Made by a program: the position numbers and the translations under genes. The notes under the pieces are model-generated. The model was not told the origin of the DNA. It was given only the letters and a program-made list of their open reading frames with translations, and ran no database searches. Shown one piece after another: positions 1-30,921 of a DNA stretch of 64,000 nucleotides. Each line of letters starts with the position of its first letter. Positions within the stretch are counted from its first letter, which is position 1. The stretch is from Haliotis cracherodii (Eukaryota), in assembly GCF_022045235.1 (NCBI RefSeq), contig NW_027266265.1, forward strand, positions 36,704,001-36,768,000, in the 5' to 3' direction.

Positions 1-50
1 TTTTACTGACACAAGATAACTGTATATAATACTACCTGTTTTTGTTTCAG

Positions 51-5457: not shown

Positions 5458-5527
5458 TATATATAAAGGACGGGGGAAACTGTTCCATCATCTCTTATCT
5501 TCACCTTCCGTTGAGACACAGATACGA
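5458..5527 (+). promoter_or_regulatory. TATA box, Inr-like start and putative non-coding exon 1 of the Gly-rich gene (copy 1; same in every unit)
   Basis: TATATATAAA at 5458-5467 and TCATCT Inr-like site at ~5488-5493, about 30 nt downstream. Candidate donor GTAAAG at 5528 (alternative GTACTA at 5546). Acceptor ...TTACTCAATAG ends at 5824, 9 nt before AAAATG. Confidence 0.65.
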
Positions 5528-5833
5528 GTAAAGACCAAACTGCAAGTACTATTTTAAGCTTTGCTTGTGATATATATGTATACTTTTAATTTTTGATTCA
5601 TCTGCTGCGCATCTGGCTGTTTTTAACCTTCATGTTGAGCCAATTTATAAAAGTACGAATATGTAACATAAAACGTTCTTGTAAATTGGGAAATATATGA
5701 ATGCGGGTGAAATTAAAACTGATAACATAATTCACAATGAGTGGTGTGAACTGAATTTACCAGATGAGTAACGATAACATGCTATTTTACCTTTCTTGAC
5801 AATGATTTTCACGTTACTCAATAGATACTCAAA

Positions 5834-6441
5834 ATGATGAAGATAGTCGCCGCTCTTGTTGCCTGCTTGGCTGTTACCGTCTTTGCCGAGCCTACCGGTC
5901 TGTATGGTGGAATTGGCGGGTTGAAAGGAGGACTGGGCGGAATTGGCTACGGAATGGGTGGATTGTACGGAGGCCTTGGAGGTCTTGGAGGCTATGGAGG
6001 TCTGTACGGAGGCATGGGAGGTCTATACGGAGGCATGGGAGGTCTATACGGAGGCATGGGAGGTCTATACGGAGGCAAATACGGATACGGCATGGGAGGT
6101 CTGTACGGAGGATTTGGAGGCTATGGTGGTCTCTACGGAATGGGAGGATACGGAATTGGATTGGGAAAAGGTATTTCACAAAATATGATATCGTTTGTTT
6201 ATCGTATCCGTAAATATACCTCCAGTCTCGTTTGCAAAATTGTATAATTTACCTATGTGGTATTACTATTTTCCGCGACAAAGCTGATGACATTTACAAA
6301 ACATCTTTAAAACTATTCTCTGCTTTCTCTAATATTTGGTATAATTTATCATGCAGCCAGTTTCAAGACTTCGTTGTGACTTATCCATACATCCCAACTT
6401 TATTCTACTATTTTTTTGTTTCAGGTATCGGCTATTATTGA
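5834..6441 (+). CDS. Secreted Gly/Tyr-rich GGLY-repeat structural protein, 117 aa, copy 1 (exons 5834-6170 + 6425-6441; carries A16V and L94F relative to the other copies)
   Basis: Signal peptide MMKIVAALVACLAVT(V/A)FA; GGLYGG repeats; donor AAG|GTATTT at 6171; acceptor TTTTTTTGTTTCAG| at 6424. The phase-1 join gives ...GLGK-GIGYY-TGA. AATAAA at 6507-6512. Confidence 0.88.
6008..6076 (+). repeat. Coding 21-bp tandem repeat (GGAGGCATGGGAGGTCTATAC x3 = GGMGGLY)
   Basis: Three perfect units plus a partial fourth; the same count in all 13 gene copies. Confidence 0.9.
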
Positions 6442-10075: not shown

Positions 10076-10683
10076 ATGATGAAGATAGTCGCCGCTCTTG
10101 TTGCCTGCCTGGCTGTTACCGCCTTTGCCGAGCCTACCGGTCTGTATGGTGGAATTGGCGGGTTGAAAGGAGGACTGGGCGGAATTGGCTACGGAATGGG
10201 TGGATTGTACGGAGGCCTTGGAGGTCTTGGAGGCTATGGAGGTCTGTACGGAGGCATGGGAGGTCTATACGGAGGCATGGGAGGTCTATACGGAGGCATG
10301 GGAGGTCTATACGGAGGCAAATACGGATACGGCATGGGAGGTCTGTACGGAGGACTTGGAGGCTATGGTGGTCTCTACGGAATGGGAGGATACGGAATTG
10401 GATTGGGAAAAGGTATTTCACAAAATATGATATCGTTTGTTTATCGTATCCGTAAATATACCTCCAGTCTCGTTTGCAAAATTGTATAATTTACCTATGT
10501 GGTATTACTATTTTCCGCGACAAAGCTGATGACATTTACAAAACATCTTTAAAACTATTCTCTGCTTTCTCTAATATTTGGTATAATTTATCATGCAGCT
10601 AGTTTCAAGACTTCGTTGTGACTTATCCATACATCCCAACTTTATTCTACTATTTTTTTGTTTCAGGTATCGGCTATTATTGA
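10076..10683 (+). CDS. Secreted Gly/Tyr-rich GGLY-repeat protein, copy 2 (two coding exons)
   Basis: Same exon/intron structure as copy 1; intact frame and splice sites; TGA at 10681-10683. Confidence 0.88.
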
Positions 10684-13600
10684 GTTATTATCACCTGCAG
10701 TGTGATGCTGGCTATTTATGTATTTTCTCAAACCAATGGAATTGGTTCAATAAAATCTTGTCATATTTATTTACGCCTTGAAATTTGTTTGAAAATCTTA
10801 ATCTGAATTGAATGTTCACAATGGAAGAGTGATCTATGTTTCTCCATATTGTAAACTGTGGACATAGTACGTGTTGTCGACCAATATCCAAGCACACTTC
10901 AATGATATTGCGTTTTACTGCTAGCTGAGATATCAACTACTGAAATGTGCTATTAAGTTCCTGAGGAAACCGGACATGATGATAAGAGGAGGGATTTTAT
11001 GCTTGATATATCTCCCACAAAATGTCACTTACCCGAGTTCATGTTTCACGGAATATATGATTTGGGCTGCCAGAAAAGGGTTTGATAGCCATTTAAGTAC
11101 CATAATATCTTGAATTGGCTGTCTGTATTTCAATTTGCATTTTAAAAACATGCAGCGAAACAAATAAGCAGGCGTGTCAATTTTTGTCAAAGCAGTCATT
11201 GACGATATCAAGGGGTAGACAGTGTGCACTGTATTGAAATGCAAATGTGTGCGCTGTCCTTGAAAATGAGCGATAGTTGTATTCAGAATACAATCTACAT
11301 GTTGTTATGGCTCTTTGTATAAGTAATATCTGAGCTGCTGCAATAAAACAAACCCGAAAGCCATAGTGATGTAGAGCATCAAAACAAATGTTGCAAGATT
11401 CTTACTGCTTGGTTAGAAGGGAATGCAAACAGTTGGAATTTCCATATTGATTAAATCAGACCGCGAATTTGAAGATTCCGAACTGGATTGGTAGGATTGA
11501 AGATTACAATGAACAAACAAAAAGCTAATATATCCCTATTGTTTGACTACAAAGCAAAAGTGACAATCATTTATCAATACAAAGGAGATTGCATTTGGTA
11601 ACTGTAGAGAGTGAAATTCAGCGGAATAAATAGTCCAACTTTAAAGCGTGTCATAAGTCTTTATAACAACAACCAGACTGTAAAAACAAGTCGTTTGATC
11701 ATGTCTATCTTTGAAAACACCTTTGTGTTATACTTTAAGAGCATTTTCTTCTGAAAACACACGTCTTTACTTTTAGATGTACGGTTTTTCTGGGCAACCC
11801 TTATATAGTTACACATTGTCAAACTGATTTGCGCGTGTTTTATTCTTGGTAAGAGTTTTGGTCTAAACACGCCTTAAAAGAACACAATAATCACTATCAC
11901 TACTGCTTCATCATGTCAAGGGCATACGTAAAGGGTAGAGACGATTTATATACTTTCTTCTAATGTTTACGACCTAATACATTTTAGCACAATCTTGCCT
12001 TTTACACCCAATGAAATCTGTTTCAGCAGATAATCGAGCCTGAATATTCTCTGGCGTTGACGATTTATGTAGTTAAAGGGTCATCACTGAATGATTATTA
12101 TATCAATATTCAGGCGTTATCTATAGAAATTGAGATATCAAATTTAGTGATGCTCGTATTATCACAAATTCCTTGATAATGAAGCGTACAATTATCAAGA
12201 TAATATGTTGAAGATAAGAGAGTTTTCTCAAGAAACGCAGTTGCAAATAAACGCCACAAAACCCTTTTCAGAATCATTCGAAAGCTGTGCTCGAAGCAGC
12301 AGAGGCCATTGTACGATTCCGACTATAATGATCACAAGCATGTGCGTATGAATGACTATCAGATAGTGGAGTAGAATAGGTCTTCAGCAACCCATGCTTG
12401 CCGTAAAAGGTGGATATATATGCTTGTCGTAAAAGGCGTCTAACGGGATCGGGTGGTCAGGCTCGCTGACTTGGTTGATGCATGTCATCGATCCCAATTG
12501 CGTGGATCGATGCTAATGATTTTAATCACTGGATTGTCTGGTCCAGACTCGATTATTTACAGACCGCCGTCATATAGCTGGAATATTGTTGAGTGCGGCG
12601 TTAAACAACCAACCAACCATCTAACCAACCAGATAGTGATGATACCTGGCGGTTGCCAAAAAGTAAGCGTATCCTTCCTCATCGGTTCCACCGTCACAAA
12701 CACATATAAAGACTAGTCAACAAAGACCACAAAACAAGCTGTTGTTCATATGTCAATCATGTTTTCAGAAGACATTGGTGTACTTTCGGCTTTTAACAGA
12801 TACTACACGCATAAAAAGATGTTGTGAGTTTTCATAGTGACAGTCCCTTTGTGAGAAGAAACCAATATATGTCCCTTTCAGTTAGGAAATAAAGCTGTTG
12901 TAGTTTATAGTTAATGTGCAGTAAGATAAATAAAATTCGGGGAGAATAATGTAGTATCTGGGGACTTCTGCAGTATATTCAGCAGAGGCTATTTTCTTGT
13001 GAGCAGGCTGCTGTATTACACGGAAACGGTTAGCATAGTTGACCCCGTGTGGTACAGTGCTACTGCAGTACTGTGGCGAGGCTGTACTGGTGTGTTGCGT
13101 CAGTTTTCTGGTCTCTTGTTATGTCGTATCACACAGATGCATTATAATGTCTGATGTATGTTGCTCCCACATCATATATTTACTGGATACACACTTTTCA
13201 GACCATTATCGAATATTTACTTAATATAGGTTAAAGTGAGTGAGTGAGTATGGTTTTACGCTGCTTTTAGCAATATTCCAGCAATATCACGGCGGGGGAC
13301 ATCAGCAATGGGCTTCACACATTGTACCCATGTCGGAAATCGAACCCGTGTCTTCGGCGTAACGAGCGAACGCTTTAACCACTAGGCTACCCGACCGCCC
13401 CTAAATAATATAGGTTAAACGTTGAGTATCGAGGACTGTTTGAAATGCAATTAGACGATTCCAGAGAGAGTGTCTCTGTTTGCCACCTTTATATACGTTG
13501 TCTTGTACTTCCTTAATCGATGTTCATGAATACCAGCTCGCATGTGTACCCGTAGGGTGATAACCTCGGGCCCTTTGATGCGAAAAGAATGCTTACTTTA

Positions 13601-14054
13601 CACCATTAAGCTGAGGTGCGTTACTTACCTGGAAGTGGCCAGCCCAAGGTAAATCAATCACGTATAATTCACAAATGGTATATATAAAGGACGGGGGAAA
13701 CTGTTCCATCATCTCTTATCTTCACCTTCCGTTGAGACACAGATACGAGTAAAGACCAAACTGCAAGTACTATTTTAAGCTTTGCTTGTGATATATATGT
13801 ATACTTTTAATTTTTGATTCATCTGCTGCGCATCTGGCTGTTTTTAACCTTCATGTTGAGCCAATTTATAAAAGTACGAATATGTAACATAAAACGTTCT
13901 TGTAAATTGGGAAATATATGAATGCGGGTGAAATTAAAACTGATAACATAATTCACAATGAGTGGTGTGAACTGAATTTACCAGATGAGTAACGATAACA
14001 TGCTATTTTACCTTTCTTGACAATGATTTTCACGTTACTCAATAGATACTCAAA

Positions 14055-14662
14055 ATGATGAAGATAGTCGCCGCTCTTGTTGCCTGCCTGGCTGTTACCG
14101 CCTTTGCCGAGCCTACCGGTCTGTATGGTGGAATTGGCGGGTTGAAAGGAGGACTGGGCGGAATTGGCTACGGAATGGGTGGATTGTACGGAGGCCTTGG
14201 AGGTCTTGGAGGCTATGGAGGTCTGTACGGAGGCATGGGAGGTCTATACGGAGGCATGGGAGGTCTATACGGAGGCATGGGAGGTCTATACGGAGGCAAA
14301 TACGGATACGGCATGGGAGGTCTGTACGGAGGACTTGGAGGCTATGGTGGTCTCTACGGAATGGGAGGATACGGAATTGGATTGGGAAAAGGTATTTCAC
14401 AAAATATGATATCGTTTGTTTATCGTATCCGTAAATATACCTCCAGTCTCGTTTGCAAAATTGTATAATTTACCTATGTGGTATTACTATTTTCCGCGAC
14501 AAAGCTGATGACATTTACAAAACATCTTTAAAACTATTCTCTGCTTTCTCTAATATTTGGTATAATTTATCATGCAGCTAGTTTCAAGACTTCGTTGTGA
14601 CTTATCCATACATCCCAACTTTATTCTACTATTTTTTTGTTTCAGGTATCGGCTATTATTGA
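14055..14662 (+). CDS. Secreted Gly/Tyr-rich GGLY-repeat protein, copy 3
   Basis: Same structure as copy 2; intact frame and splice sites. Confidence 0.88.
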
Positions 14663-17600
14663 GTTATTATCACCTGCAGTGTGATGCTGGCTATTTATGT
14701 ATTTTCTCAAACCAATGGAATTGGTTCAATAAAATCTTGTCATATTTATTTACGCCTTGAAATTTGTTTGAAAATCTTAATCTGAATTGAATGTTCACAA
14801 TGGAAGAGTGATCTATGTTTCTCCATATTGTAAACTGTGGACATAGTACGTGTTGTCGACCAATATCCAAGCACACTTCAATGATATTGCGTTTTACTGC
14901 TAGCTGAGATATCAACTACTGAAATGTGCTATTAAGTTCCTGAGGAAACCGGACATGATGATAAGAGGAGGGATTTTATGCTTGATATATCTCCCACAAA
15001 ATGTCACTTACCCGAGTTCATGTTTCACGGAATATATGATTTGGGCTGCCAGAAAAGGGTTTGATAGCCATTTAAGTACCATAATATCTTGAATTGGCTG
15101 TCTGTATTTCAATTTGCATTTTAAAAACATGCAGCGAAACAAATAAGCAGGCGTGTCAATTTTTGTCAAAGCAGTCATTGACGATATCAAGGGGTAGACA
15201 GTGTGCACTGTATTGAAATGCAAATGTGTGCGCTGTCCTTGAAAATGAGCGATAGTTGGATTCAGAATACAATCTACATGTTGTTATGGCTCTTTGTATA
15301 AGTAATATCTGAGCTGCTGCAATAAAACAAACCCGAAAGCCATAGTGATGTAGAGCATCAAAACAAATGTTGCAAGATTCTTACTGCTTGGTTAGAAGGG
15401 AATGCAAACAGTTGGAATTTCCATATTGATTAAATCAGACCGCGAATTTGAAGATTCCGAACTGGATTGGTAGGATTGAAGATTACAATGAACAAACAAA
15501 AAGCTAATATATCCCTATTGTTTGACTACAAAGCAAAAGTGACAATCATTTATCAATACAAAGGAGATTGCATTTGGTAACTGTAGAGAGTGAAATTCAG
15601 CGGAATAAATAGTCCAACTTTAAAGCGTGTCATAAGTCTTTATAACAACAACCAGACTGTAAAAACAAGTCGTTTGATCATGTCTATCTTTGAAAACACC
15701 TTTGTGTTATACTTTAAGAGCATTTTCTTCTGAAAACACACGTCTTTACTTTTAGATGTACGGTTTTTCTGGGCAACCCTTATATAGTTACACATTGTCA
15801 AACTGATTTGCGCGTGTTTTATTCTTGGTAAGAGTTTTGGTCTAAACACGCCTTAAAAGAACACAATAATCACTATCACTACTGCTTCATCATGTCAAGG
15901 GCATACGTAAAGGGTAGAGACGATTTATATACTTTCTTCTAATGTTTACGACCTAATACATTTTAGCACAATCTTGCCTTTTACACCCAATGAAATCTGT
16001 TTCAGCAGATAATCGAGCCTGAATATTCTCTGGCGTTGACGATTTATGTAGTTAAAGGGTCATCACTGAATGATTATTATATCAATATTCAGGCGTTATC
16101 TATAGAAATTGAGATATCAAATTTAGTGATGCTCGTATTATCACAAATTCCTTGATAATGAAGCGTACAATTATCAAGATAATATGTTGAAGATAAGAGA
16201 GTTTTCTCAAGAAACGCAGTTGCAAATAAACGCCACAAAACCCTTTTCAGAATCATTCGAAAGCTGTGCTCGAAGCAGCAGAGGCCATTGTACGATTCCG
16301 ACTATAATGATCACAAGCATGTGCGTATGAATGACTATCAGATAGTGGAGTAGAATAGGTCTTCAGCAACCCATGCTTGCCGTAAAAGGTGGATGTATAT
16401 GCTTGTCGTAAAAGGCGTCTAACGGGATCGGGTGGTCAGGCTCGCTGACTTGGTTGATGCATGTCATCGATCCCAATTGCGTGGATCGATGCTAATGATT
16501 TTAATCACTGGATTGTCTGGTCCAGACTCGATTATTTACAGACCGCCGTCATATAGCTGGAATATTGTTGAGTGCGGCGTTAAACAACCAACCAACCAAC
16601 TAACCAACCAGATAGTGATGATACCTGGCGGTTGCCAAAAAGTAAGCGTATCCTTCCTCATCGGTTCCACCGTCACCAACACATATAAAGACTAGTCAAC
16701 AAAGACCACAAAACAAGCTGTTGTTCATATGTCAATCATGTTTTCAGAAGACATTGGTGTACTTTCGGCTTTTAACAGATACTACACGCATAAAAAGATG
16801 TTGTGAGTTTTCATAGTGACAGTCCCTTTGTGAGAAGAAACCAATATATGTCCCTTTCAGTTAGGAAATAAAGCTGTTGTAGTTTATAGTTAATGTGCAG
16901 TAAGATAAATAAAATTCGGGGAGAATAATGTAGTATCTGGGGACTTCTGCAGTATATTCAGCAGAAGCTATTTTCTTGTGAGCAGGCTGCTGTATTACAC
17001 GGAAACGGTTAGCATAGTTGACCCCGTGTGGTACAGTGCTACTGCTGTACTGTGGCGAGGCTGTACTGGTGTGTTGCGTCAGTTTTCTGGTCTCTTGTTA
17101 TGTCGTATCACACAGATGCATTATAATGTCTGATGTATGTTGCTCCCACATCATATATTTACTGGATACACACTTTTCAGACCATTATCGAATATTTACT
17201 TAATAAAGGTTAAAGTGAGTGAGTGAGTATGGTTTTACGCCGCTTTTAGCAATATTACGTCGGGGGACATCAGCAATGGGCTTCACACATTGTACCCATG
17301 TCGGAAATCGAACCCGTGTCTTCGGCGTAACGAGCGAACGCTTTAACCACTAGGCTACCCGACCGCCCCTAAATGATATAGGTTAAACGTTGAGTATCGA
17401 GGACTGTTTGAAATGCAGTTAGACGATTCCAGAGAGAGTGTCTCTGTTTGCCACCTTTATATACGTTGTCTTGTACTTCCTTAATCGATGTTCATGAATA
17501 CCAGCTCGCATGTGTACCCGTAGGGTGATAACCTCGGGCCCTTTGATGCGAAAAGAATGCTTACTTTACACCATTAAGCTGAGGTGCGTTACTTACCTGG

Positions 17601-18022
17601 AAGTGGCCAGCCCAAGGTAAATCAATCACGTATAATTCACAAATGGTATATATAAAGGACGGGGGAAACTGTTCCATCATCTCTTATCTTCGCCTTCCGT
17701 TGAGACACAGATACGAGTAAAGACCAAACTGCAAGTACTATTTTAAGCTTTGCTTGTGATATATATGTATACTTTTAATTTTTGATTCATCTGCTGCGCA
17801 TCTGGCTGTTTTTAACCTTCATGTTGAGCCAATTTATAAAAGTACGAATATGTAACATAAAACGTTCTTGTAAATTGGGAAATATATGAATGCGGGTGAA
17901 ATTAAAACTGATAACATAATTCACAATGAGTGGTGTGAACTGAATTTACCAGATGAGTAACGATAACATGCTATTTTACCTTTCTTGACAATGATTTTCA
18001 CGTTACTCAATAGATACTCAAA

Positions 18023-18630
18023 ATGATGAAGATAGTCGCCGCTCTTGTTGCCTGCCTGGCTGTTACCGCCTTTGCCGAGCCTACCGGTCTGTATGGTGGA
18101 ATTGGCGGGTTGAAAGGAGGACTGGGCGGAATTGGCTACGGAATGGGTGGATTGTACGGAGGCCTTGGAGGTCTTGGAGGCTATGGAGGTCTGTACGGAG
18201 GCATGGGAGGTCTATACGGAGGCATGGGAGGTCTATACGGAGGCATGGGAGGTCTATACGGAGGCAAATACGGATACGGCATGGGAGGTCTGTACGGAGG
18301 ACTTGGAGGCTATGGTGGTCTCTACGGAATGGGAGGATACGGAATTGGATTGGGAAAAGGTATTTCACAAAATATGATATCGTTTGTTTATCGTATCCGT
18401 AAATATACCTCCAGTCTCGTTTGCAAAATTGTATAATTTACCTATGTGGTATTACTATTTTCCGCGACAAAGCTGATGACATTTACAAAACATCTTTAAA
18501 ACTATTCTCTGCTTTCTCTAATATTTGGTATAATTTATCATGCAGCTAGTTTCAAGACTTCGTTGTGACTTATCCATACATCCCAACTTTATTCTACTAT
18601 TTTTTTGTTTCAGGTATCGGCTATTATTGA
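18023..18630 (+). CDS. Secreted Gly/Tyr-rich GGLY-repeat protein, copy 4
   Basis: Same structure as copy 2; intact frame and splice sites. Confidence 0.88.
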
Positions 18631-21600
18631 GTTATTATCACCTGCAGTGTGATGCTGGCTATTTATGTATTTTCTCAAACCAATGGAATTGGTTCAATAA
18701 AATCTTGTCATATTTATTTACGCCTTGAAATTTGTTTGAAAATCTTAATCTGAATTGAATGTTCACAATGGAAGAGTGATCTATGTTTCTCCATATTGTA
18801 AACTGTGGACATAGTACGTGTTGTCGACCAATATCCAAGCACACTTCAATGATATTGCGTTTTACTGCTAGCTGAGATATCAACTACTGAAATGTGCTAT
18901 TAAGTTCCTGAGGAAACCGGACATAATGATAAGAGGAGGGATTTTATGCTTGATATATCTCCCACAAAATGTCACTTACCCGAGTTCATGTTTCACGGAA
19001 TATATGATTTGGGCTGCCAGAAAAGGGTTTGATAGCCATTTAAGTACCATAATATCTTGAATTGGCTGTCTGTATTTCAATTTGCATTTTAAAAACATGC
19101 AGCGAAACAAATAAGCAGGCGTGTCAATTTTTGTCAAAGCAGTCATTGACGATATCAAGGGGTAGACAGTGTGCACTGTATTGAAATGCAAATGTGTGCG
19201 CTGTCCTTGAAAATGAGCGATAGTTGTATTCAGAATACAATCTACATGTTGTTATGGCTCTTTGTATAAGTAATATCTGAGCTGCTGCAATAAAACAAAC
19301 CCGAAAGCCATAGTGATGTAGAGCATCAAAACAAATGTTGCAAGATTCTTACTGCTTGGTTAGAAGGGAATGCAAACAGTTGGAATTTCCATGACAATAA
19401 CATATCTTTACAGTTTATCAATTACACAAACAAAACGATTGAATTCAAAAGTAACTATTAAATACGCTTGTCCGGGTATAGCTTATCAACCTACGAATTA
19501 TTTGTAATTTCCATCAAACATGTACTTCTTGATTTGATGATGCAATTTAACATTTTGCATACTGCTTATGTAATTAATAGGAGAAGTATCTATATAGATA
19601 TTTAGTTGTGTGTTTACTAACCACCTTCCCTGTAGGTGCTATTTGAAAAATACATATTGATTAAATCAGACCGCGAATTTGAAGATTCCGAACTGGATTG
19701 GTAGGATTGAAGATTACAATGAACAAACAAATAGCTAATATATCCCTATTGTTTGACTACAAAGCAAAAGTGACAATCATTTATCAATACAAAGGAGATT
19801 GCATTTGGTAACTGTAGAGAGTGAAATTCAGCGGAATAAATAGTCCAACTTTAAAGCGTGTCATAAGTCTTTATAACAACAACCAGACTGTAAAAACAAG
19901 TCGTTTGATCATGTCTATCTTTGAAAACACCTTTGTGTTATACTTTAAGAGCATTTTCTTCTGAAAACACACGTCTTTACTTTTAGATGTACGGTTTTTC
20001 TGGGCAACCCTTATATAGTTACACATTGTCAAACTGATTTGCGCGTGTTTTATTCTTGGTAAGAGTTTTGGTCTAAACACGCCTTAAAAGAACACAATAA
20101 TCACTATCACTACTGCTTCATCATGTCAAGGGCATACGTAAAGGGTAGAGATGATTTATATACTTTCTTCTAATGTTTACGACCTAATACATTTTAGCAC
20201 AATCTTGCCTTTTACACCCAATGAAATCTGTTTCAGCAGATAATCGAGCCTGAATATTCTCTGGCGTTGACGATTTATGTAGTTAAAGGGTCATCACTGA
20301 ATGATTATTATATCAATATTCAGGCGTTATCTATAGAAATTGAGATATCAAATTTAGTGATGCTCGTATTATCACAAATTCCTTGATAATGAAGCGTACA
20401 ATTATCAAGATAATATGTTGAAGATAAGAGAGTTTTCTCAAGAAACGCAGTTGCAAATAAACGCCACAAAACCCTTTTCAGAATCATTCGAAAGCTGTGC
20501 TCGAAGCAGCAGAGGCCATTGTACGATTCCGACTATAATGATCACAAGCATGTGCGTATGAATGACTATCAGATAGTGGAGTAGAATAGGTCTTCAGCAA
20601 CCCATGCTTGCCGTAAAAGGTGGATGTATATGCTTGTCGTAAAAGGCGTCTAACGGGATCGGGTGGTCAGGCTCGCTGACTTGGTTGATGCATGTCATCG
20701 ATCCCAATTGCGTGGATCGATGCTAATGATTTTAATCACTGGATTGTCTGGTCCAGACTCGATTATTTACAGACCGCCGTCATATAGCTGGAATATTGTT
20801 GAGTGCGGCGTTAAACAACCAACCAACCATCTAACCAACCAGATAGTGATGATACCTGGCGGTTGCCAAAAAGTAAGCGTATCCTTCCTCATCGGTTCCA
20901 CCGTCACAAACACATATAAAGACTAGTCAACAAAGACCACAAAACAAGCTGTTGTTCATATGTCAATCATGTTTTCAGAAGACATTGGTGTACTTTCGGC
21001 TTTTAACAGATACTACACGCATAAAAAGATGTTGTGAGTTTTCATAGTGACAGTCCCTTTGTGAGAAGAAACCAATATATGTCCCTTTCAGTTAGGAAAT
21101 AAAGCTGTTGTAGTTTATAGTTAATGTGCAGTAAGATAAATAAAATTCGGGGAGAATAATGTAGTATCTGGGGACTTCTGCAGTATATTCAGCAGAAGCT
21201 ATTTTCTTGTGAGCAGGCTGCTGTATTACACGGAAACGGTTAGCATAGTTGACCCCGTGTGGTACAGTGCTACTGCTGTACTGTGGCGAGGCTGTACTGG
21301 TGTGTTGCGTCAGTTTTCTGGTCTCTTGTTATGTCGTATCACACAGATGCATTATAATGTCTGATGTATGTTGCTCCCACATCATATATTTACTGGATAC
21401 ACACTTTTCAGACCATTATCGAATATTTACTTAATAAAGGTTAAAGTGAGTGAGTGAGTATGGTTTTACGCCGCTTTTAGCAATATTACGTCGGGGGACA
21501 TCAGCAATGGGCTTCACACATTGTACCCATGTCGGAAATCGAACCCGTGTCTTCGGCGTAACGAGCGAACGCTTTAACCACTAGGCTACCCGACCGCCCC

Positions 21601-22253
21601 TAAATAATATAGGTTAAACGTTGAGTATCGAGGACTGTTTGAAATGCAGTTAGACGATTCCAGAGAGAGTGTCTCTGTTTGCCACCTTTATATACGTTGT
21701 CTTGTACTTCCTTAATCGATGTTCATGAATACCAGCTCGCATGTGTACCCGTAGGGTGATAACCTCGGGCCCTTTGATGCGAAAAGAATGCTTACTTTAC
21801 ACCATTAAGCTGAGGTGCGTTACTTACCTGGAAGTGGCCAGCCCAAGGTAAATCAATCACGTATAATTCACAAATGGTATATATAAAGGACGGGGGAAAC
21901 TGTTCCATCATCTCTTATCTTCACCTTCCGTTGAGACACAGATACGAGTAAAGACCAAACTGCAAGTACTATTTTAAGCTTTGCTTGTGATATATATGTA
22001 TACTTTTAATTTTTGATTCATCTGCTGCGCATCTGGCTGTTTTTAACCTTCATGTTGAGCCAATTTATAAAAGTACGAATATGTAACATAAAACGTTCTT
22101 GTAAATTGGGAAATATATGAATGCGGGTGAAATTAAAACTGATAACATAATTCACAATGAGTGGTGTGAACTGAATTTACCAGATGAGTAACGATAACAT
22201 GCTATTTTACCTTTCTTGACAATGATTTTCACGTTACTCAATAGATACTCAAA

Positions 22254-22861
22254 ATGATGAAGATAGTCGCCGCTCTTGTTGCCTGCCTGGCTGTTACCGC
22301 CTTTGCCGAGCCTACCGGTCTGTATGGTGGAATTGGCGGGTTGAAAGGAGGACTGGGCGGAATTGGCTACGGAATGGGTGGATTGTACGGAGGCCTTGGA
22401 GGTCTTGGAGGCTATGGAGGTCTGTACGGAGGCATGGGAGGTCTATACGGAGGCATGGGAGGTCTATACGGAGGCATGGGAGGTCTATACGGAGGCAAAT
22501 ACGGATACGGCATGGGAGGTCTGTACGGAGGACTTGGAGGCTATGGTGGTCTCTACGGAATGGGAGGATACGGAATTGGATTGGGAAAAGGTATTTCACA
22601 AAATATGATATCGTTTGTTTATCGTATCCGTAAATATACCTCCAGTCTCGTTTGCAAAATTGTATAATTTACCTATGTGGTATTACTATTTTCCGCGACA
22701 AAGCTGATGACATTTACAAAACATCTTTAAAACTATTCTCTGCTTTCTCTAATATTTGGTATAATTTATCATGCAGCTAGTTTCAAGACTTCGTTGTGAC
22801 TTATCCATACATCCCAACTTTATTCTACTATTTTTTTGTTTCAGGTATCGGCTATTATTGA
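22254..22861 (+). CDS. Secreted Gly/Tyr-rich GGLY-repeat protein, copy 5
   Basis: Same structure as copy 2; intact frame and splice sites. Confidence 0.88.
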
Positions 22862-23894
22862 GTTATTATCACCTGCAGTGTGATGCTGGCTATTTATGTA
22901 TTTTCTCAAACCAATGGAATTGGTTCAATAAAATCTTGTCATATTTATTTACGCCTTGAAATTTGTTTGAAAATCTTAATCTGAATTGAATGTTCACAAT
23001 GGAAGAGTGATCTATGTTTCTCCATATTGTAAACTGTGGACATAGTACGTGTTGTCGACCAATATCCAAGCACACTTCAATGATATTGCGTTTTACTGCT
23101 AGCTGAGATATCAACTACTGAAATGTGCTATTAAGTTCCTGAGGAAACCGGACATAATGATAAGAGGAGGGATTTTATGCTTGATATATCTCCCACAAAA
23201 TGTCACTTACCCGAGTTCATGTTTCACGGAATATATGATTTGGGCTGCCAGAAAAGGGTTTGATAGCCATTTAAGTACCATAATATCTTGAATTGGCTGT
23301 CTGTATTTCAATTTGCATTTTAAAAACATGCAGCGAAACAAATAAGCAGGCGTGTCAATTTTTGTCAAAGCAGTCATTGACGATATCAAGGGGTAGACAG
23401 TGTGCACTGTATTGAAATGCAAATGTGTGCGCTGTCCTTGAAAATGAGCGATAGTTGTATTCAGAATACAATCTACATGTTGTTATGGCTCTTTGTATAA
23501 GTAATATCTGAGCTGCTGCAATAAAACAAACCCGAAAGCCATAGTGATGTAGAGCATCAAAACAAATGTTGCAAGATTCTTACTGCTTGGTTAGAAGGGA
23601 ATGCAAACAGTTGGAATTTCCATGACAATAACATATCTTTACAGTTTATCAATTACACAAACAAAACGATTGAATTCAAAAGTAACTATTAAATACGCTT
23701 GTCCGGGTATAGCTTATCAACCTACAAATTATTTGTAATTTCCATCAAACATGTACTTCTTGATTTGATGATGCAATTTAACATTTTGCATACTGCTTAT
23801 GTAATTAATAGGAGAAGTATCTATATAGATATTTAGTTGTGTGTTTACTAACCACCTTCCCTGTAGGTGCTATTTGAAAAATACATATTGATTA

Positions 23895-26800
23895 CTGACT
23901 GATATAAAAGATTTAACGTGCGCTTTCCGACTACAGCGTATTTCGCACACGGGCCTGGTCGGACCATTTAGTGTATTCCGAGAAGGGTGAAAGTGGTGTG
24001 TGCAACCCAAGAGGGGGCTTTTAGGGGTTGCTTATATTGATTTTTTGAAATTTTTAAATTTGGAATAAATGCCGAGGTGGGTGGAGGAGGGAACTAAGGG
24101 AGCCGGGTGAGGTGGGTGTTTGTATGTTTATTGGATTTTGAATTGGTAGATTAATTAATTTTTAGATGCGCTTAATTAGGTCTGTTTTGATTAGGAATAC
24201 GCCTAGGGCCTTGAAATTTTCTAGTTTATTTTGAGGGTTTAATTAGTATTTCATCTAGAGTAGGAACTTTATTTAGATTGAGGGCGGTTTGTAGTGTGGT
24301 TCTGTGTGTTTGATAGTGGGTGCAGTGAATGAGTGCGTGTTCTGTGGTTTCGGGTTGTTTGCAGTGGGGGCAGTTGCCTGTGGTGTGTCTTTTAAGTTGT
24401 TTTAGGTGGTTATTTAGGTTGGTGTGTCCTGTTTGGAGTTTTGTAATTAATCTGTCAATTTTTTTAGAGGGGTGTAGGATTTTAGGTTTGGCTAGTGGTT
24501 TTCTGAGCACTTTTTTGATTTGGCTATTTGAGTTTTGATATTGATTATGCCATTTTTTGGTTATTTTTTGTTTGTTTACACTTTTAATTTCTGATTTTGA
24601 GATGGGTAGGTTTAGGCTTATTTCTGGTATTTTGAGAGATAATTTAGCTGCTTTATCGGCGCTTTCATTGCCGTAAATTCCTACGTGGGCGGGGATCCAC
24701 AAGAAGGTTATTTGTTTGCCTGCTTTTGTTAGGTCGTTGGAGCTTTTAAGTATTTGGTTTATTAATTTAGGTCGTTTTTTGGTATTTTTGTTTTGGAGGG
24801 CTTGTAGTCCACTAAGGGAGTCAGTGAGAATTAGGATTTTTTTGTTGTTTTTAGATTGTTGGTTATGCAGGGCTGAGGCCATGCCCATAAGTTCGGCCGT
24901 GAATATAGATTGGTTGTTAGGGAGTCGGTAAGATTGTGTGGATATAACTGGTTGTGTGGTATGGACTCCGAAGCCTGTGTGGTTGGAGATCGGGTCTGAA
25001 GATCCGTCAGTGTATATGTGACACCAATTTGTCCAATTTTCGTGTATGTATGCAAGTGTGGTGGTTTTAGCTATGTTTGGGTCGGTTTGTTTATTTATTT
25101 GGTTAGCTAGCGTTGTGTCTATTTGGGGTATTTTGAGTTTAGGGGTGAAGATATTTGATTTTTTGCAGTTTTGTTTAAGATTTTGAGTTTGGTGTTCATT
25201 GAGGTAGTTAGTTATTCTTTGGGATATTGGGGTGAGTAAGGGGTGTTTGCGAGCTAGAGCTTGGTTTCTTGGGCTAATGTTTTGGTTAATTAGGTTTTGG
25301 ATGAGAGGGTTTGTTTGGGACGCGGCCCAGAAGTTAAGGCTTAGATGTTCCCTGCGTAGATTTAGTGGCATTTCTCCTGTAAGGGCCTGAAGTGAGGTGT
25401 AGGAGGTGCCATGTTGGGTGCGTGTAATTAGTTTGAGAGCCTGATATTGTATTGAGTCAAGTTTTTTAGAAAGAGAGTTGTTTAGGGTATTGTATATGGC
25501 ACAGCCGTAGTCTAGTTTTGATCTAATTAGTGTTGTATATAGTGAGAGGAGGGTATCTTTGGAGGCTCCCCAGTTAGAGCCGGTGAGACATCTTAATGTG
25601 TTAAGGTCTTTGCTGCATCTAGTTTTTAGGTTTTGGACGTGAGCCTCCCAGGTGAGGTGTTGATCGAAAATAAGTCCTAAGAATTTTGTTTGTTTTTGGA
25701 ATTTGATTGTTTGGTTGTTTAGCTGGAGGATTGGGTAGGCAGGTTTCATGTTTTTATGTTTGAATACTACTCCTGTTGTTTTATCTGAGTTAAGGGAGAA
25801 GCCCCATTTGTCTGCCCATTGTTGTATTTTATTTAGAGATTTTTGGATTAAGTTTTCTGCCATTTTAATGCTTTTAGTGCGGATCCATAGGGCTCCGTCA
25901 TCCGCGAATTTTGAAGTGTTTAGTTTAGGGGATAATCCCTCGAATAGATCATTTATCATTATATTGAAGAGGGTTGGGCTGAGGATGCTGCCCTGGGGAG
26001 TGCCATTTTCTAGGGGACACTGGTCCGATAGTGTATGGTCTATACCCACGGTAATTTTGCGATTGTTTAGGAAATCTTGGATGAAGTTTATTATTATTTG
26101 ACCTTTTAGTCCTATTTTTTTTAGTTTTTGTATGAGCCCGTGGTGCCATACCATATCGAAAGCTTTAGAGAAGTCGAGGAATATGCCTATGGTGTATTGC
26201 TTGTTTAGCTGTCCTGTTTTTATATCCTGTTCTAGTCGGGCAAGGTTATCGAGAGTTGATCGGCCAGGAGTGAAGCCGCTTTGGTCAGGATTTATGATGT
26301 TGTTTTGGTCTAGGTAGTGCTGTAGCCTATTTTTAGTCATAAGTTCCATTATTTTGCAGAGATTTGAGGTTAAGGAGATGGGCCTATAGGAGTTTGCCTG
26401 ATCTGCTGGTTTATTTGGTTTAGGTATTGGGATTACTAGAGCTTCCTTCCATGAGGATGGGACCTGTCCGTTTAGGTAGACTAGGTTGTATAGTTTAAGT
26501 AAAGTTTGGAGTAGTTTGGTAGGTAAGTGTTTGATTATTTGGTAAGAGGTGAGGTCTAGGCCAGGGGCTGTTCCTTTTTTTCTATTGTTTAGTACGTGAT
26601 TTAGTTCTTCTATGGTGTAAGGTTGATTTATTTCTAGGTTGTCTTGTCTGTTTTCTTTGGAGAATTTGGTTTCTTTATTTAGTTTATCTTGGAATTTCTT
26701 ACTGAAGTTACTGTTGCTGCTAACTTTAGAGAAGTGTTTGGCTAGGTTGTCGGCCTTTTGGGTGGGGTTAGTTGAGTTGTTTATATTGGGGCTTTTTTTG

Positions 26801-27705
26801 TGCCGTTTGATGCCTCGGATGGCGTGAATTTTGCGCCACACCTTCCTAGCGTCGGTGTGGTGATTTAGCTCCTCACAGAATTGTTTCCAGTTTTTGGTTT
26901 TAGCAGTTTTAACTAGGTTTTGCACTTGGTGGTTAAGTTCATGAGCTGTTTTGAGATGAGAGGGGTCTCGTTTAGCTCTGTTGAAAGCTGATTTGCGTTT
27001 TATTCTAGTTAGCTCTATTTCCTCATTCCACCAAGGGACAGTGGGTTTTCCTGGGTTGGATGATTTGAAGGGGATTGCGGATTTGGCTGCGTTGATTATG
27101 AAGTTAGTTAGGTTTTGACAGAATGTTTCGGGGTCTGTTGTTTCTAAATCGTTTAGATTAGCTTCGTTGCATAATTCTTGGAATTGGTCCCAGTTGGCGT
27201 TTTTGTACTGAAATTTAGGTTCCTGTTTAGGGGTTTGATTTGGTATTTTTATATTTCCTAGGGTTATATTTATGGGAAAGTGGTCGCTGCCTAGAGGTAC
27301 TGGGTGGACGTCCCACATCAGACTTTGTGCTAAGTCTGGCGTACATATTGTTAAGTCGATAGCCGACATGGTGTGGTGGGTTTTGTCGTATCTAGTTGGT
27401 TGGTTATTGTTTAATAGTATTAGGTCATTTTTTTCCATCCACTCTGATATTAGTTGTCCATGGTTGTCTAGTTTATCTGCAATGCCCCAGGTAGGATGAT
27501 GGGCATTGAAGTCTCCTAGGAAGATGGTTGATTTATTTCCTAATTGGTAAAGGACATCTAGGTCTGTATCTTTAATTGGTTTTAGTGTTGAGTGATAGAT
27601 GTTAATGATTTTTATTTTTTGGTTATTGATGGTGACTTGGATTCCATTAGCTTCTAGATTAGGAGTGTTTACTTTAACTTCCTCGTAGTTAATATCCTCT
27701 CTAAC
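23895..27705 (-). mobile_element. 5'-truncated non-LTR retrotransposon (I-group, I/Nimb-like: APE endonuclease - RT - RNase H - CCHC) with 7-bp TSD
   Basis: TSD TTGATTA at 23888-23894 and 27706-27712. 3811+7 bp accounts for the extra length of unit 5. 3' end on the minus strand is ...GCGCACGTTAAATCTTTTATATCAGTCAG. Absent from all other units. Confidence 0.95.
24226..27705 (-). CDS. LINE ORF2 (pol): truncated APE endonuclease, reverse transcriptase, RNase H, C-terminal zinc knuckle
   Basis: The frame is open from the truncation point at 27705, upstream of the track's ATG at 27438. EN motifs: IINIY, FLGDFNAHHPTWG, SAIDLT, SDHFPI. RT motifs: YRPISLTS, DFSKAFD, GTPQGSILSP, FADD. RNase H motifs: IYTDGS, AEL, LTDS, WIPAHVGIYGNESADKAAK. 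Zinc knuckle: CPHC..ETTEHALIHC. Confidence 0.93.
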   Translation of the reverse strand, partial: VREDINYEEVKVNTPNLEANGIQVTINNQKIKIINIYHSTLKPIKDTDLDVLYQLGNKSTIFLGDFNAHHPTWGIADKLDNHGQLISEWMEKNDLILLNNNQPTRYDKTHHTMSAIDLTICTPDLAQSLMWDVHPVPLGSDHFPINITLGNIKIPNQTPKQEPKFQYKNANWDQFQELCNEANLNDLETTDPETFCQNLTNFIINAAKSAIPFKSSNPGKPTVPWWNEEIELTRIKRKSAFNRAKRDPSHLKTAHELNHQVQNLVKTAKTKNWKQFCEELNHHTDARKVWRKIHAIRGIKRHKKSPNINNSTNPTQKADNLAKHFSKVSSNSNFSKKFQDKLNKETKFSKENRQDNLEINQPYTIEELNHVLNNRKKGTAPGLDLTSYQIIKHLPTKLLQTLLKLYNLVYLNGQVPSSWKEALVIPIPKPNKPADQANSYRPISLTSNLCKIMELMTKNRLQHYLDQNNIINPDQSGFTPGRSTLDNLARLEQDIKTGQLNKQYTIGIFLDFSKAFDMVWHHGLIQKLKKIGLKGQIIINFIQDFLNNRKITVGIDHTLSDQCPLENGTPQGSILSPTLFNIMINDLFEGLSPKLNTSKFADDGALWIRTKSIKMAENLIQKSLNKIQQWADKWGFSLNSDKTTGVVFKHKNMKPAYPILQLNNQTIKFQKQTKFLGLIFDQHLTWEAHVQNLKTRCSKDLNTLRCLTGSNWGASKDTLLSLYTTLIRSKLDYGCAIYNTLNNSLSKKLDSIQYQALKLITRTQHGTSYTSLQALTGEMPLNLRREHLSLNFWAASQTNPLIQNLINQNISPRNQALARKHPLLTPISQRITNYLNEHQTQNLKQNCKKSNIFTPKLKIPQIDTTLANQINKQTDPNIAKTTTLAYIHENWTNWCHIYTDGSSDPISNHTGFGVHTTQPVISTQSYRLPNNQSIFTAELMGMASALHNQQSKNNKKILILTDSLSGLQALQNKNTKKRPKLINQILKSSNDLTKAGKQITFLWIPAHVGIYGNESADKAAKLSLKIPEISLNLPISKSEIKSVNKQKITKKWHNQYQNSNSQIKKVLRKPLAKPKILHPSKKIDRLITKLQTGHTNLNNHLKQLKRHTTGNCPHCKQPETTEHALIHCTHYQTHRTTLQTALNLNKVPTLDEILIKPSK

Positions 27706-30313
27706 TTGATTAAATCAGACCGCGAATTTGAAGATTCCGAACTGGATTGGTAGGATTGAAGATTACAATGAACAAACAAAAAGCTAATATATCCCTATTG
27801 TTTGACTACAAAGCAAAAGTGACAATCATTTATCAATACAAAGGAGATTGCATTTGGTAACTGTAGAGAGTGAAATTCAGCGGAATAAATAGTCCAACTT
27901 TAAAGCGTGTCATAAGTCTTTATAACAACAACCAGACTGTAAAAACAAGTCGTTTGATCATGTCTATCTTTGAAAACACCTTTGTGTTATACTTTAAGAG
28001 CATTTTCTTCTGAAAACACACGTCTTTACTTTTAGATGTACGGTTTTTCTGGGCAACCCTTATATAGTTACACATTGTCAAACTGATTTGCGCGTGTTTT
28101 ATTCTTGGTAAGAGTTTTGGTCTAAACACGCCTTAAAAGAACACAATAATCACTATCACTACTGCTTCATCATGTCAAGGGCATACGTAAAGGGTAGAGA
28201 CGATTTATATACTTTCTTCTAATGTTTACGACCTAATACATTTTAGCACAATCTTGCCTTTTACACCCAATGAAATCTGTTTCAGCAGATAATCGAGCTT
28301 GAATATTCTCTGGCGTTGACGATTTATGTAGTTAAAGGGTCATCACTGAATGATTATTATATCAATATTCAGGCGTTATCTATAGAAATTGAGATATCAA
28401 ATTTAGTGATGCTCGTATTATCACAAATTCCTTGATAATGAAGCGTACAATTATCAAGATAATATGTTGAAGATAAGAGAGTTTTCTCAAGAAACGCAGT
28501 TGCAAATAAACGCCACAAAACCCTTTTCAGAATCATTCGAAAGCTGTGCTCGAAGCAGCAGAGGCCATTGTACGATTCCGACTATAATGATCACAAGCAT
28601 GTGCGTATGAATGACTATCAGATAGTGGAGTAGAATAGGTCTTCAGCAACCCATGCTTGCCGTAAAAGGTGGATATATATGCTTGTCGTAAAAGGCGTCT
28701 AACGGGATCGGGTGGTCAGGCTCGCTGACTTGGTTGATGCATGTCATCGATCCCAATTGCGTGGATCGATGCTAATGATTTTAATCACTGGATTGTCTGG
28801 TCCAGACTCGATTATTTACAGACCGCCGTCATATAGCTGGAATATTGTTGAGTGCGGCGTTAAACAACCAACCAACCAACTAACCAACCAGATAGTGATG
28901 ATACCTGGCGGTTGCCAAAAAGTAAGCGTATCCTTCCTCATCGGTTCCACCGTCACAAACACATATAAAGACAAGTCAACAAAGACCACAAAACAAGCTG
29001 TTGTTCATATGTCAATCATGTTTTCAGAAGACATTGGTGTACTTTCGGCTTTTAACAGATACTACACGCATAAAAAGATGTTGTGAGTTTTCATAGTGAC
29101 AGTCCCTTTGTGAGAAGAAACCAATATATGTCCCTTTCAGTTAGGAAATAAAGCTGTTGTAGTTTATAGTTAATGTGCAGTAAGATAAATAAAATTCGGG
29201 GAGAATAATGTAGTATCTGGGGACTTCTGCAGTATATTCAGCAGAGGCTATTTTCTTGTGAGCAGGCTGCTGTATTACACGGAAACGGTTAGCATAGTTG
29301 ACCCCGTGTGGTACAGTGCTACTGCTGTACTGTGGCGAGGCTGTACTGGTGTGTTGCGTCAGTTTTCTGGTCTCTTGTTATGTCGTATCACACAGATGCA
29401 TTATAATGTCTGATGTATGTTGCTCCCACATCATATATTTACTGGATACACACTTTTCAGACCATTATCGAATATTTACTTAATATAGGTTAAAGTGAGT
29501 GAGTGAGTATGGTTTTACGCCGCTTTTAGCAATATTCCAGCAATATTACGGCGGGGGACATCAGCAATGGGCTTCACACATTGTACCCATGTCGGAAATC
29601 GAACCCGTGTCTTCGGCGTAACGAGCGAACGCTTTAACCACTAGGCTACCCGACCGCCCCTAAATAATATAGGTTAAACGTTGAGTATCGAGGACTGTTT
29701 GAAATGCAGTTAGACGATTCCAGAGAGAGTGTCTCTGTTTGCCACCTTTATATACGTTGTCTTGTACTTCCTTAATCGATGTTCATGAATACCAGCTCGC
29801 ATGTGTACCCGTAGGGTGATAACCTCGGGCCCTTTGATGCGAAAAGAATGCTTACTTTACACCATTAAGCTGAGGTGCGTTACTTACCTGGAAGTGGCCA
29901 GCCCAAGGTAAATCAATCACGTATAATTCACAAATGGTATATATAAAGGACGGGGGAAACTGTTCCATCATCTCTTATCTTCACCTTCCGTTGAGACACA
30001 GATACGAGTAAAGACCAAACTGCAAGTACTATTTTAAGCTTTGCTTGTGATATATATGTATACTTTTAATTTTTGATTCATCTGCTGCGCATCTGGCTGC
30101 TTTTAACCTTCATGTTGAGCCAATTTATAAAAGTACGAATATGTAACATAAAACGTTCTTGTAAATTGGGAAATATATGAATGCGGGTGAAATTAAAACT
30201 GATAACATAATTCACAATGAGTGGTGTGAACTGAATTTACCAGATGAGTAACGATAACATGCTATTTTACCTTTCTTGACAATGATTTTCACGTTACTCA
30301 ATAGATACTCAAA

Positions 30314-30921
30314 ATGATGAAGATAGTCGCCGCTCTTGTTGCCTGCCTGGCTGTTACCGCCTTTGCCGAGCCTACCGGTCTGTATGGTGGAATTGGCGGG
30401 TTGAAAGGAGGACTGGGCGGAATTGGCTACGGAATGGGTGGATTGTACGGAGGCCTTGGAGGTCTTGGAGGCTATGGAGGTCTGTACGGAGGCATGGGAG
30501 GTCTATACGGAGGCATGGGAGGTCTATACGGAGGCATGGGAGGTCTATACGGAGGCAAATACGGATACGGCATGGGAGGTCTGTACGGAGGACTTGGAGG
30601 CTATGGTGGTCTCTACGGAATGGGAGGATACGGAATTGGATTGGGAAAAGGTATTTCACAAAATATGATATCGTTTGTTTATCGTATCCGTAAATATACC
30701 TCCAGTCTCGTTTGCAAAATTGTATAATTTACCTATGTGGTATTACTATTTTCCGCGACAAAGCTGATGACATTTACAAAACATCTTTAAAACTATTCTC
30801 TGCTTTCTCTAATATTTGGTATAATTTATCATGCAGCTAGTTTCAAGACTTCGTTGTGACTTATCCATACATCCCAACTTTATTCTACTATTTTTTTGTT
30901 TCAGGAATCGGCTATTATTGA
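30314..30921 (+). CDS. Secreted Gly/Tyr-rich GGLY-repeat protein, copy 6
   Basis: Same structure; T>A at 30906 is synonymous (G|GT>G|GA, Gly) under the spliced model. Confidence 0.88.

What the first reader, a model, noticed from the sequence alone, without database searches (positions are those of the whole stretch)
5834..6441. Predicted mature protein is a 99-aa Gly/Tyr/Leu/Met polymer lacking any folded domain
Seen (hand count, copies 2-13): after an 18-aa signal peptide the chain has 53 Gly, 16 Tyr, 14 Leu, 6 Met, no Cys and one acidic residue, arranged as GGLYGG(M/L) and GGY modules. Established: GGLY/GGY modules occur in the amorphous domains of squid suckerins, and Gly/Tyr-rich chains occur in bivalve shematrins, insect chorion/cuticle proteins and spider Gly-rich antimicrobial peptides. 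This protein lacks the Ala/His-rich beta modules of suckerins and the basic C-terminal tail of shematrins. Inference: a distinct lineage-specific biomaterial protein that may self-assemble or be cross-linked via Tyr/DOPA; an antimicrobial role is an alternative.
Basis: partly seen in the sequence, partly recalled or inferred. Interest (0 to 1): 0.7.

Follow-up and report, generated by a model that had tools for sequence, protein, structure and literature searches.

The report
Abalone glycine-tyrosine coat protein family
This is a real, spliced abalone gene for a small glycine- and tyrosine-rich protein, one of more than a hundred related copies in the genome, which is predicted to be secreted and likely cross-links into a tough organic coat, most likely the first skin of the larval shell, though its tissue is untested.

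Summary
Observation confirmed. The spliced gene gives 117 aa: an 18-aa predicted signal peptide and a 99-aa chain (53 Gly, 16 Tyr, 14 Leu, 6 Met in copies 2-13; the copy at these coordinates has 13 Leu and 1 Phe). There is no Pfam or PDB match, and AlphaFold2 orders only the signal helix. Contigs from three studies skip the coding intron. A Haliotis asinina RefSeq model shares both non-repeat ends, under an automatic name only. The gene belongs to an abalone family of about 116 copies on six contigs that share the signal peptide, intron layout and a terminal Tyr. One subfamily carries the GGYGLGL motif of Has-tsfgr1, a larval shell-field gene; another concatenates suckerin-like GLYGGYG(M/L) octamers. 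The family is missing from an adult H. asinina mantle screen and from an adult shell proteome, and one run with spliced Lustrin A showed no spliced form of it. Best reading: a dosage-amplified scleroprotein precursor, Tyr-cross-linked into an organic coat, likely larval or early-juvenile periostracum (about 0.5; any structural coat about 0.85). It is a new member of a known kind. The scan noted this family before on other DNA (e1-9540137, e1-9197086).

The parts
5460..5467 (+). TATA box
   Evidence: same motif at the same offset in 13 of 13 copies
5490..5541 (+). 5' untranslated exon (start approximate; contigs cannot show a start)
   Evidence: contigs of X1 and X2 join 5541 to 5825
5542..5824 (+). 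intron 1, 283 nt, GC..AG type, in the 5' leader, ending 9 nt before the ATG
   Evidence: joint in X1 and X2; GC donor in 13 of 13 copies
5834..5887 (+). predicted signal peptide, 18 aa, cut before Glu-Pro
   Evidence: sequence pattern; only helix of the model; conserved across subfamilies and species
5888..6170 (+). Gly/Tyr/Leu/Met chain, coding part of exon 2
5966..6077 (+). 21-nt tandem repeat coding the heptad GGLYGGM; its copy number varies among gene copies elsewhere in the genome
   Evidence: 5.5 copies, 88% matches
6171..6424 (+). intron 2, 254 nt, phase 1, GT..AG
   Evidence: joint in X1, X2, X9
6425..6441 (+). last coding exon (Gly-Ile-Gly-Tyr-Tyr, stop)
   Evidence: same end in H. 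asinina P0002
6507..6512 (+). polyadenylation signal AATAAA
   Evidence: 13 of 13 copies
10076..60615 (+). 12 further copies in tandem (ATG at 10076, 14055, 18023, 22254, 30314, 34556, 38798, 43040, 47282, 51524, 55766, 60008); unit about 4.0-4.2 kb; the array runs on beyond the window to 31 units
24226..27714 (-). non-LTR retrotransposon frame (endonuclease, reverse transcriptase, RNase H) inserted between copies 5 and 6

Best explanation
The gene is spliced and encodes a small, predicted secreted, likely unfolded Gly/Tyr chain that most likely serves as a scleroprotein precursor: it would be released at the larval shell field or early-juvenile mantle edge, would pack through Tyr/Leu/Met contacts, and would be cross-linked through its Gly-flanked tyrosines by a peroxidase or tyrosinase into the organic skin (periostracum) on which shell mineral is laid. 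Shown: gene structure, splicing, composition, tandem amplification, conservation of both termini across abalone species. Inferred: secretion, tissue and stage, packing, cross-linking, and that the many copies serve to make much protein quickly.
For: Splicing in 3 of 4 runs laid. Orthologue in H. asinina with both termini kept while the middle drifts, also multi-copy (10 accessions listed). About 116 family genes on 6 contigs sharing signal peptide (0 of 2000 shuffles reach the score for each of 12 other members), a phase-1 intron before the last codons and a terminal Tyr. 13 of 16 Tyr sit in LYG or GYG, 14 of 16 are followed by Gly; Gly-flanked Tyr is the context that PMC6007483 proposes as peroxidase substrate for Lymnaea mantle proteins. 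Cepaea proteins with over 50% Gly and 13-19% Tyr are expressed in the belt and periostracal groove, one together with a peroxidase (PMC7894901). Abalone Has-tsfgr1 (114 aa, 17-aa signal, Gly/Leu/Tyr, over 52% Gly, terminal Tyr) is expressed in the trochophore shell field and juvenile mantle edge and lost in larger animals (PMC2034539). Its GGYGLGL motif lies in a Gly-rich frame only in the C18 subfamily of this family (6 of 12 genome hits, the other 6 are not Gly-rich genes), which also has a 17-aa signal. Pointing away from adult nacre mantle: a glycine-rich screen of adult H. asinina mantle ESTs found 2 proteins, neither of this family (PMC4944945); in run X4 contigs join Lustrin A exons while this gene is covered only by contigs that run through both introns.
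Against: No tissue or stage is known for any run; the larval reading is indirect. Orthology with Has-tsfgr1 is not shown: no tandem GGYGLGL-GGYG in the genome, no GYKGY end tied to a Gly-rich gene among 30 of 62 pattern hits examined, C18 genes carry the motif once or twice and end in His-Tyr, and a search with the C18 N-terminus found no protein. The window's protein has 0 GGYGLGL. The family's motifs were not found in 24 of 27 supplements of the adult H. laevigata shell proteome; those shells were bleached or abraded, so this neither supports nor tests periostracum. No tyrosinase or peroxidase gene was seen in the flanks read. The X4 contrast is one run, and contigs drop rare forms. Composition alone does not fix function: this kind of protein arises repeatedly.
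Confidence: 0.5

Rival explanations
1. Same chemistry, another organ: a structural protein of a non-shell coat such as the larval operculum, radula or jaw, or an epidermal cuticle.
For: All compositional and copy-number evidence applies equally. Not seen spliced in the Lustrin A-bearing run. The C1 subfamilies hold 5-6 GLYGGYG(M/L) octamers, matching or close to the GX8 repeats of squid sucker-ring suckerin-19, a non-shell material (PMC6839752). Nearest Atlas clusters are arthropod cuticle-type proteins, but at 0.80 or less, chance level.
Against: No chitin-binding or other domain. The best-matched characterised gastropod proteins are shell-field or mantle-edge products. A search for abalone, radula, transcriptome and glycine-rich gave 3 papers, none on this family by title or abstract.
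Confidence: 0.3
2. A glycine-rich antimicrobial peptide of the ctenidin or armadillidin sort.
For: Small, predicted secreted, weakly basic (3 Lys, 1 Glu; pI 8.8); an H. rubra relative is auto-named 'ctenidin-1-like'; immune peptides are often multi-copy (own knowledge).
Against: Armadillidins are Arg-rich with pI 11-12 and 53-59 aa (PMC7017220); this chain has no Arg and net charge about +2 over 99 aa. It ends in Tyr-Tyr with no amidation Gly. Copies are homogenised (nucleotide diversity 0.0014 in exon 2 among 13 copies), not diversified. The automatic names differ at random within one family (glycine-rich, neuropeptide-like, ctenidin-like, shematrin-like, spidroin-like).
Confidence: 0.07
3. 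A framework protein of the adult mineral layers, like pearl-oyster shematrins.
For: Gly/Tyr-rich, terminal Tyr; a paralogue is auto-named 'shematrin-like protein 2'.
Against: Motifs absent from 24 of 27 supplements of the H. laevigata nacre and prismatic proteome although three Lys would give tryptic peptides; absent from the adult mantle EST screen; no acidic or basic block.
Confidence: 0.05
4. A secreted gel or mucus protein (egg coat, pedal or gland secretion) that assembles without covalent tanning.
For: Suckerin-derived GLYGGYGV gels in water and GLYGGYGL forms stiff beads without cross-linker (PMC6839752).
Against: Only the Val octamer gelled; the window's protein has 0 exact GX8 octamers; no Ser/Thr-rich or acidic mucin features.
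Confidence: 0.08

Closest known systems
H. asinina RefSeq models XP_067657837-842 and 846-849 (automatic names 'glycine-rich protein-like', 'neuropeptide-like protein 31')
   Same: Near-identical signal peptide, EPTGLYG start, GGLYGGKYGYG block and GYGIGLGKGIGYY end; multi-copy on one contig
   Different: 101 aa instead of 117; middle less repetitive; uncharacterised
H. rubra 'ctenidin-1-like' XP_046565582 and H. cracherodii 'shematrin-like protein 2' / 'spidroin-1-like' XP_071095146, 135, 156
   Same: Paralogous subfamilies of the same family (KP type and EPIGYG type)
   Different: Different first residues and repeat unit; the long H. cracherodii models repeat the signal peptide and look like tandem copies fused by gene prediction
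[quoted passage not shown]
   Same: Same genus, size (114 aa), signal peptide, Gly/Leu/Tyr make-up, over 52% Gly, heptad repeats, terminal Tyr; its motif occurs in the C18 subfamily
   Different: Repeat GGYGLGL and end GYKGY against GGLYGGM and GIGYY; full sequence not available here, so homology is unproven
Lymnaea Lstag-sfc-6/7/8 and Cepaea glycine-rich-2/3 (PMC6007483, PMC7894901)
   Same: Secreted Gly/Tyr-rich mantle-edge proteins, Gly-flanked Tyr, proposed peroxidase substrates
   Different: Other gastropod lineages; no sequence homology shown; Lymnaea proteins also Asn-rich
Suckerin-19 Gly-rich module, GX8 peptides (PMC6839752)
   Same: GGLYGG words; C1 subfamilies carry GLYGGYGL and GLYGGYGM
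   Different: No Ala/His beta modules; window protein has no exact GX8; likely convergent
Pearl-oyster shematrins
   Same: Secreted, Gly/Tyr-rich, terminal Tyr, expanded gene family
   Different: No basic C-terminal motif (feature recalled); not found in abalone mineral-layer proteome; no homology hit

Membership tests
Unnamed Haliotis EP/KP Gly-Tyr family (P0002, P0003, P0007) | Shared signal peptide ending A|EP or A|KP | tested here: met
   0 of 2000 shuffles reach the observed score for each member
Unnamed Haliotis EP/KP Gly-Tyr family (P0002, P0003, P0007) | Phase-1 intron before a last exon of 3-7 codons ending in Tyr | tested here: met
   RNA-type contigs for the window gene; predicted for 10 of 15 representatives by script and for C18 by eye
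Has-tsfgr1 | Signal peptide plus Gly/Leu/Tyr chain over 52% Gly, about 114 aa, terminal Tyr | tested here: met
   117 aa, 54% Gly, ends Tyr-Tyr (paper)
Has-tsfgr1 | Eleven repeats, mostly GGYGLGL, and C-terminal GYKGY | tested here: not met
   0 GGYGLGL in the window protein, 1-2 in C18 paralogues; ends differ; so not the orthologue
Has-tsfgr1 | Homology (same family) through the signal peptide and gene structure | tested here: inconclusive
   tsfgr1 sequence not obtainable (figure only); motif confined to the C18 subfamily
Has-tsfgr1 | Expression in shell field and anterior mantle edge | not testable with these tools
   runs are coded, contigs give no tissue or level
Shematrins | Basic C-terminal motif ending in Tyr (basic part recalled, not read) | tested here: not met
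   ends GKGIGYY, one Lys in the last seven residues
Shematrins | Present in prismatic or nacre matrix | tested here: inconclusive
   no motif in 24 of 27 supplements of PMC6003135; depends on their database
Suckerins | Gly-rich modules alternating with Ala/His-rich beta modules | tested here: not met
   0 Ala, 0 His in the mature chain; definition from PMC6839752
Suckerins | GX8 octamers GLYGGYG(V/L/F) | tested here: not met
   0 in the window protein; 5-6 with M or L at X in C1 paralogues
Gly-rich antimicrobial peptides (armadillidins, ctenidins) | Strongly cationic, Arg-rich, about 55 aa (armadillidins) | tested here: not met
   no Arg, pI 8.8, 99 aa against table in PMC7017220
Gly-rich antimicrobial peptides (armadillidins, ctenidins) | Haemocyte expression and antimicrobial activity | not testable with these tools
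   ctenidin paper not held
Tanned molluscan scleroprotein precursors (functional class) | Secreted, about 50% Gly, Tyr-rich with Gly-flanked Tyr | tested here: met
Tanned molluscan scleroprotein precursors (functional class) | Dityrosine or DOPA-quinone cross-links in the native material | not testable with these tools
   needs protein chemistry

The most novel reading that the evidence does not exclude
Abalone amplify a single Gly/Tyr scleroprotein family, which includes Has-tsfgr1, to over a hundred genes in homogenised arrays to build the larval shell's first organic layer within hours, as insects do with chorion genes; and some members are bare concatemers of suckerin-like GLYGGYGX octamers that form a stiff material without suckerin's Ala/His beta blocks.
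Probability: 0.25. Interest if true: 0.62.

Novelty: new member of a known kind. Interest (0 to 1): 0.36.

Why it matters
The proteins of the gastropod periostracum and larval shell skin are poorly known because they are insoluble and repetitive, and are missed by proteomics and mangled by gene prediction. A defined, abalone-restricted family with clear subfamily termini gives probes, peptides and a short recombinant target for testing tanning and self-assembly. It also shows that database names and lengths for these genes (ctenidin-like, shematrin-like, spidroin-like, fused 346-979 aa models) mislead. The class itself is known, so the surprise is moderate.

Tried and rejected
No RNA holder is on record among 21 runs listed; this is no evidence either way. 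Lustrin A exons had no cover in X1 and X9 and one contig in X2: lack of cover is not counted as evidence, though it prompted the larval reading. X1 and X2 laid 2030 and 1630 contigs on the gene against 6 and 3 for X4 and X9, with far larger summed depth; contig depth cannot give an expression level, so 'highly expressed' is not claimed. Finding tsfgr1 in the genome: tandem motif pattern 0 hits; GYKGY-stop pattern 62 hits against 138 in the reversed control, 30 examined, none beside a Gly-rich frame within 1.5 kb; protein search with the C18 N-terminus 0 of 46 candidates. Homologues outside Haliotis: 13 of 16 hits are not abalone; the 8 whose sequences I read lack the signal peptide match and are repeat look-alikes; profile search returned only the two Haliotis proteins (only the best 7967 candidates were scored). 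Has-GRBP and Has-CL10Contig2 rejected: other repeats. Atlas hits at 0.80 or less are chance level. No fold search was run on the low-confidence model, and no complex prediction. A polyglycine-II bundle is not supported by the heptad (Gly in 16, 22, 15 of 33 positions per frame; longest G-X-X run 6 triplets) but local stretches could adopt it. Literature: 10 searches showed no paper on this family; GGLYGG occurs in 14 papers, none on abalone by title or abstract. Supplements of PMC1676022 could not be read and 3 of 27 of PMC6003135 were not searched; EST tables there could hold this gene. The shematrin and ctenidin primary papers were not held.

Full report
1. The observation. The window is mostly a tandem array of a 4.0-4.2 kb unit with 13 gene copies at over 99% identity. 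The finding is the first copy. Its ATG is at 5834, a phase-1 GT..AG intron spans 6171-6424 and the stop is at 6439-6441, giving 117 aa. All 13 copies keep the TATA box, both introns' signals and AATAAA. Pfam finds nothing for the protein or for 12 of 12 family members, the PDB profile search finds nothing, and AlphaFold2 on a 12-row alignment gives pLDDT 46.8 with only the signal helix ordered. A disordered monomer is the plain reading; a shallow alignment and a low-complexity chain would score low in any case.

2. It is transcribed and spliced. No holder is on record as RNA, but contigs of 3 of 4 runs laid (X1, X2, X9; three studies) skip the 254-nt intron, and X1 and X2 also skip a 283-nt GC..AG intron in the leader. 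Loose ends in X1 and X2 match a paralogue of the KP type, so two subfamilies occur in the same runs. Contigs give no level, strand or tissue.

3. Relatives. The only hits that share the signal peptide are abalone: H. asinina P0002 (101 aa, both termini kept; 10 accessions listed in its cluster), H. rubra P0003 and H. cracherodii P0007, P0021, P0022. All names are automatic and disagree. The long H. cracherodii models repeat the signal peptide two to seven times and are best read as tandem copies fused by prediction (inference). The window is therefore abalone.

4. The family in this genome. Searches with three N-termini and fetching of the loci give: the window's array, 31 units, one lacking its signal part; a second array of 29 on C80; 5 scattered copies; arrays of 17 (several frameshifted) and 15 on C1; 10 KP-type genes without stops on C80; 5 on C18; 2 on C3; 2 more on C1. 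That is about 116, a lower bound for matches but not a count of intact genes, and it depends on the assembly. Members share the signal peptide (0 of 2000 shuffles reach the score), an acceptor-like AG shortly before the ATG, a phase-1 intron before the last 3-7 codons and a terminal Tyr. Mature chains are 36-60% Gly and 8-22% Tyr with no Cys (14 representatives, leaving out the degenerate C23 copy). Copies within an array are near-identical but vary in heptad number, and carry private insertions such as a retrotransposon, which argues that the arrays are real.

5. What it most likely does. Papers read as passages or sections: Has-tsfgr1 is a 114-aa secreted Gly/Leu/Tyr protein of H. asinina, expressed in the trochophore shell field and juvenile mantle edge and absent in larger animals (PMC2034539, section 11 whole and passages). 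Cepaea proteins with over 50% Gly and 13-19% Tyr lie in the belt and periostracal groove, one with a peroxidase (PMC7894901, passages). Lymnaea Gly-rich proteins with Gly-flanked Tyr are proposed peroxidase substrates (PMC6007483, passages). In the window protein 14 of 16 Tyr are followed by Gly. The tsfgr1 motif GGYGLGL has 12 hits in the genome (8 in the reversed control); the 6 that lie in Gly-rich frames are all in the C18 subfamily, which has a 17-aa signal like tsfgr1. That makes tsfgr1 a plausible family member, not a proven one: C18 genes have 1-2 motifs and end in His-Tyr, and tsfgr1's own repeat and end were not found. Three lines point away from adult mineral-forming mantle: a screen of adult H. 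asinina mantle ESTs for secreted Gly-rich proteins found two, neither of this family (PMC4944945, methods part, passages and 7 supplements), though that EST set was small; the adult H. laevigata shell proteome lacks the motifs in 24 of 27 supplements (PMC6003135, passages and supplements); and run X4, whose contigs join exons of Lustrin A (identified by Pfam and its Gly-Ser domain), covers this gene only with contigs that run through both introns. Lustrin A is a marker of nacre-forming mantle of post-larval animals. I therefore commit to a scleroprotein precursor of the larval or early-juvenile shell skin at 0.5, another hard coat at 0.3, and a structural role of any kind at about 0.85-0.9.

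6. Assembly. Suckerin-19 holds 13 GLYGGYGX octamers; the Val form gels as beta-sheet with Tyr stacking, the Leu form makes stiff beads, six variants did not gel (PMC6839752, passages). The window protein has none exactly, but the C1 subfamilies have 5-6 with Met or Leu.

7. Comparison and novelty. It works like known secreted Gly/Tyr-rich mollusc coat proteins; it is not a suckerin, not a shematrin and not the tsfgr1 orthologue by the features tested. Expansion of such low-complexity families is known in pearl oysters (PMC4897951, passages). Other papers seen: PMC7017220, PMC1676022, PMC4660305, PMC5048140 as passages; the rest as listings only. Ten searches showed no paper on this family (see Tried and rejected); subscription journals are largely not held. 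Earlier AI notes of this scan describe arrays of the same family with the same general reading; they are not independent support. What this report adds is the size and common gene layout of the whole family, the link to tsfgr1 through C18, the GX8 octamers on C1, and the hints against adult nacre mantle. Verdict: real, uncharacterised, new member of a known kind; interest 0.36.

Noticed in passing
window 24226-27714 (-): An uninterrupted 1162-aa non-LTR retrotransposon frame (endonuclease, reverse transcriptase, RNase H) sits in the spacer between copies 5 and 6.
   Followed up: partly
window 5542-5824: The leader intron has a GC donor in all 13 copies; run X2 also shows a joint from about 5556, a possible second donor.
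   Followed up: partly
window 1-400 and L015:7944-8537: The array begins just after a Cys-loop ligand-gated ion channel gene (Pfam PF02931, PF02932).
   Followed up: partly
L001:6103 (G000:C2:36772103): One array unit has lost the signal-peptide part, the leader running straight into the repeats.
   Followed up: no
P0007, P0021, P0022: RefSeq models of 200-979 aa repeat the signal peptide and appear to be tandem copies fused by gene prediction.
   Followed up: partly
L045-L050 (G000:C23:75.60-75.65 Mb): Lustrin A gene, with a block of Cys-module exons present three times about 4 kb apart.
   Followed up: no
L066:5913-6680: A longer family member (about 260 aa) with Asn/Ala-containing repeats of 10 residues, same signal type and last-intron layout.
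   Followed up: no
L116:1680 and L117:1452 (G000:C80:14.88-14.89 Mb): Two identical frames for a likely secreted protein with Pro/Met/Ile-rich and Gly/Val-rich blocks, about 9 kb apart.
   Followed up: no
window, spacer of the repeat unit (e.g. 5031, 17231): A short interspersed repeat is present in 12 places but missing from some units, explaining unit lengths of 3968-4242.
   Followed up: partly
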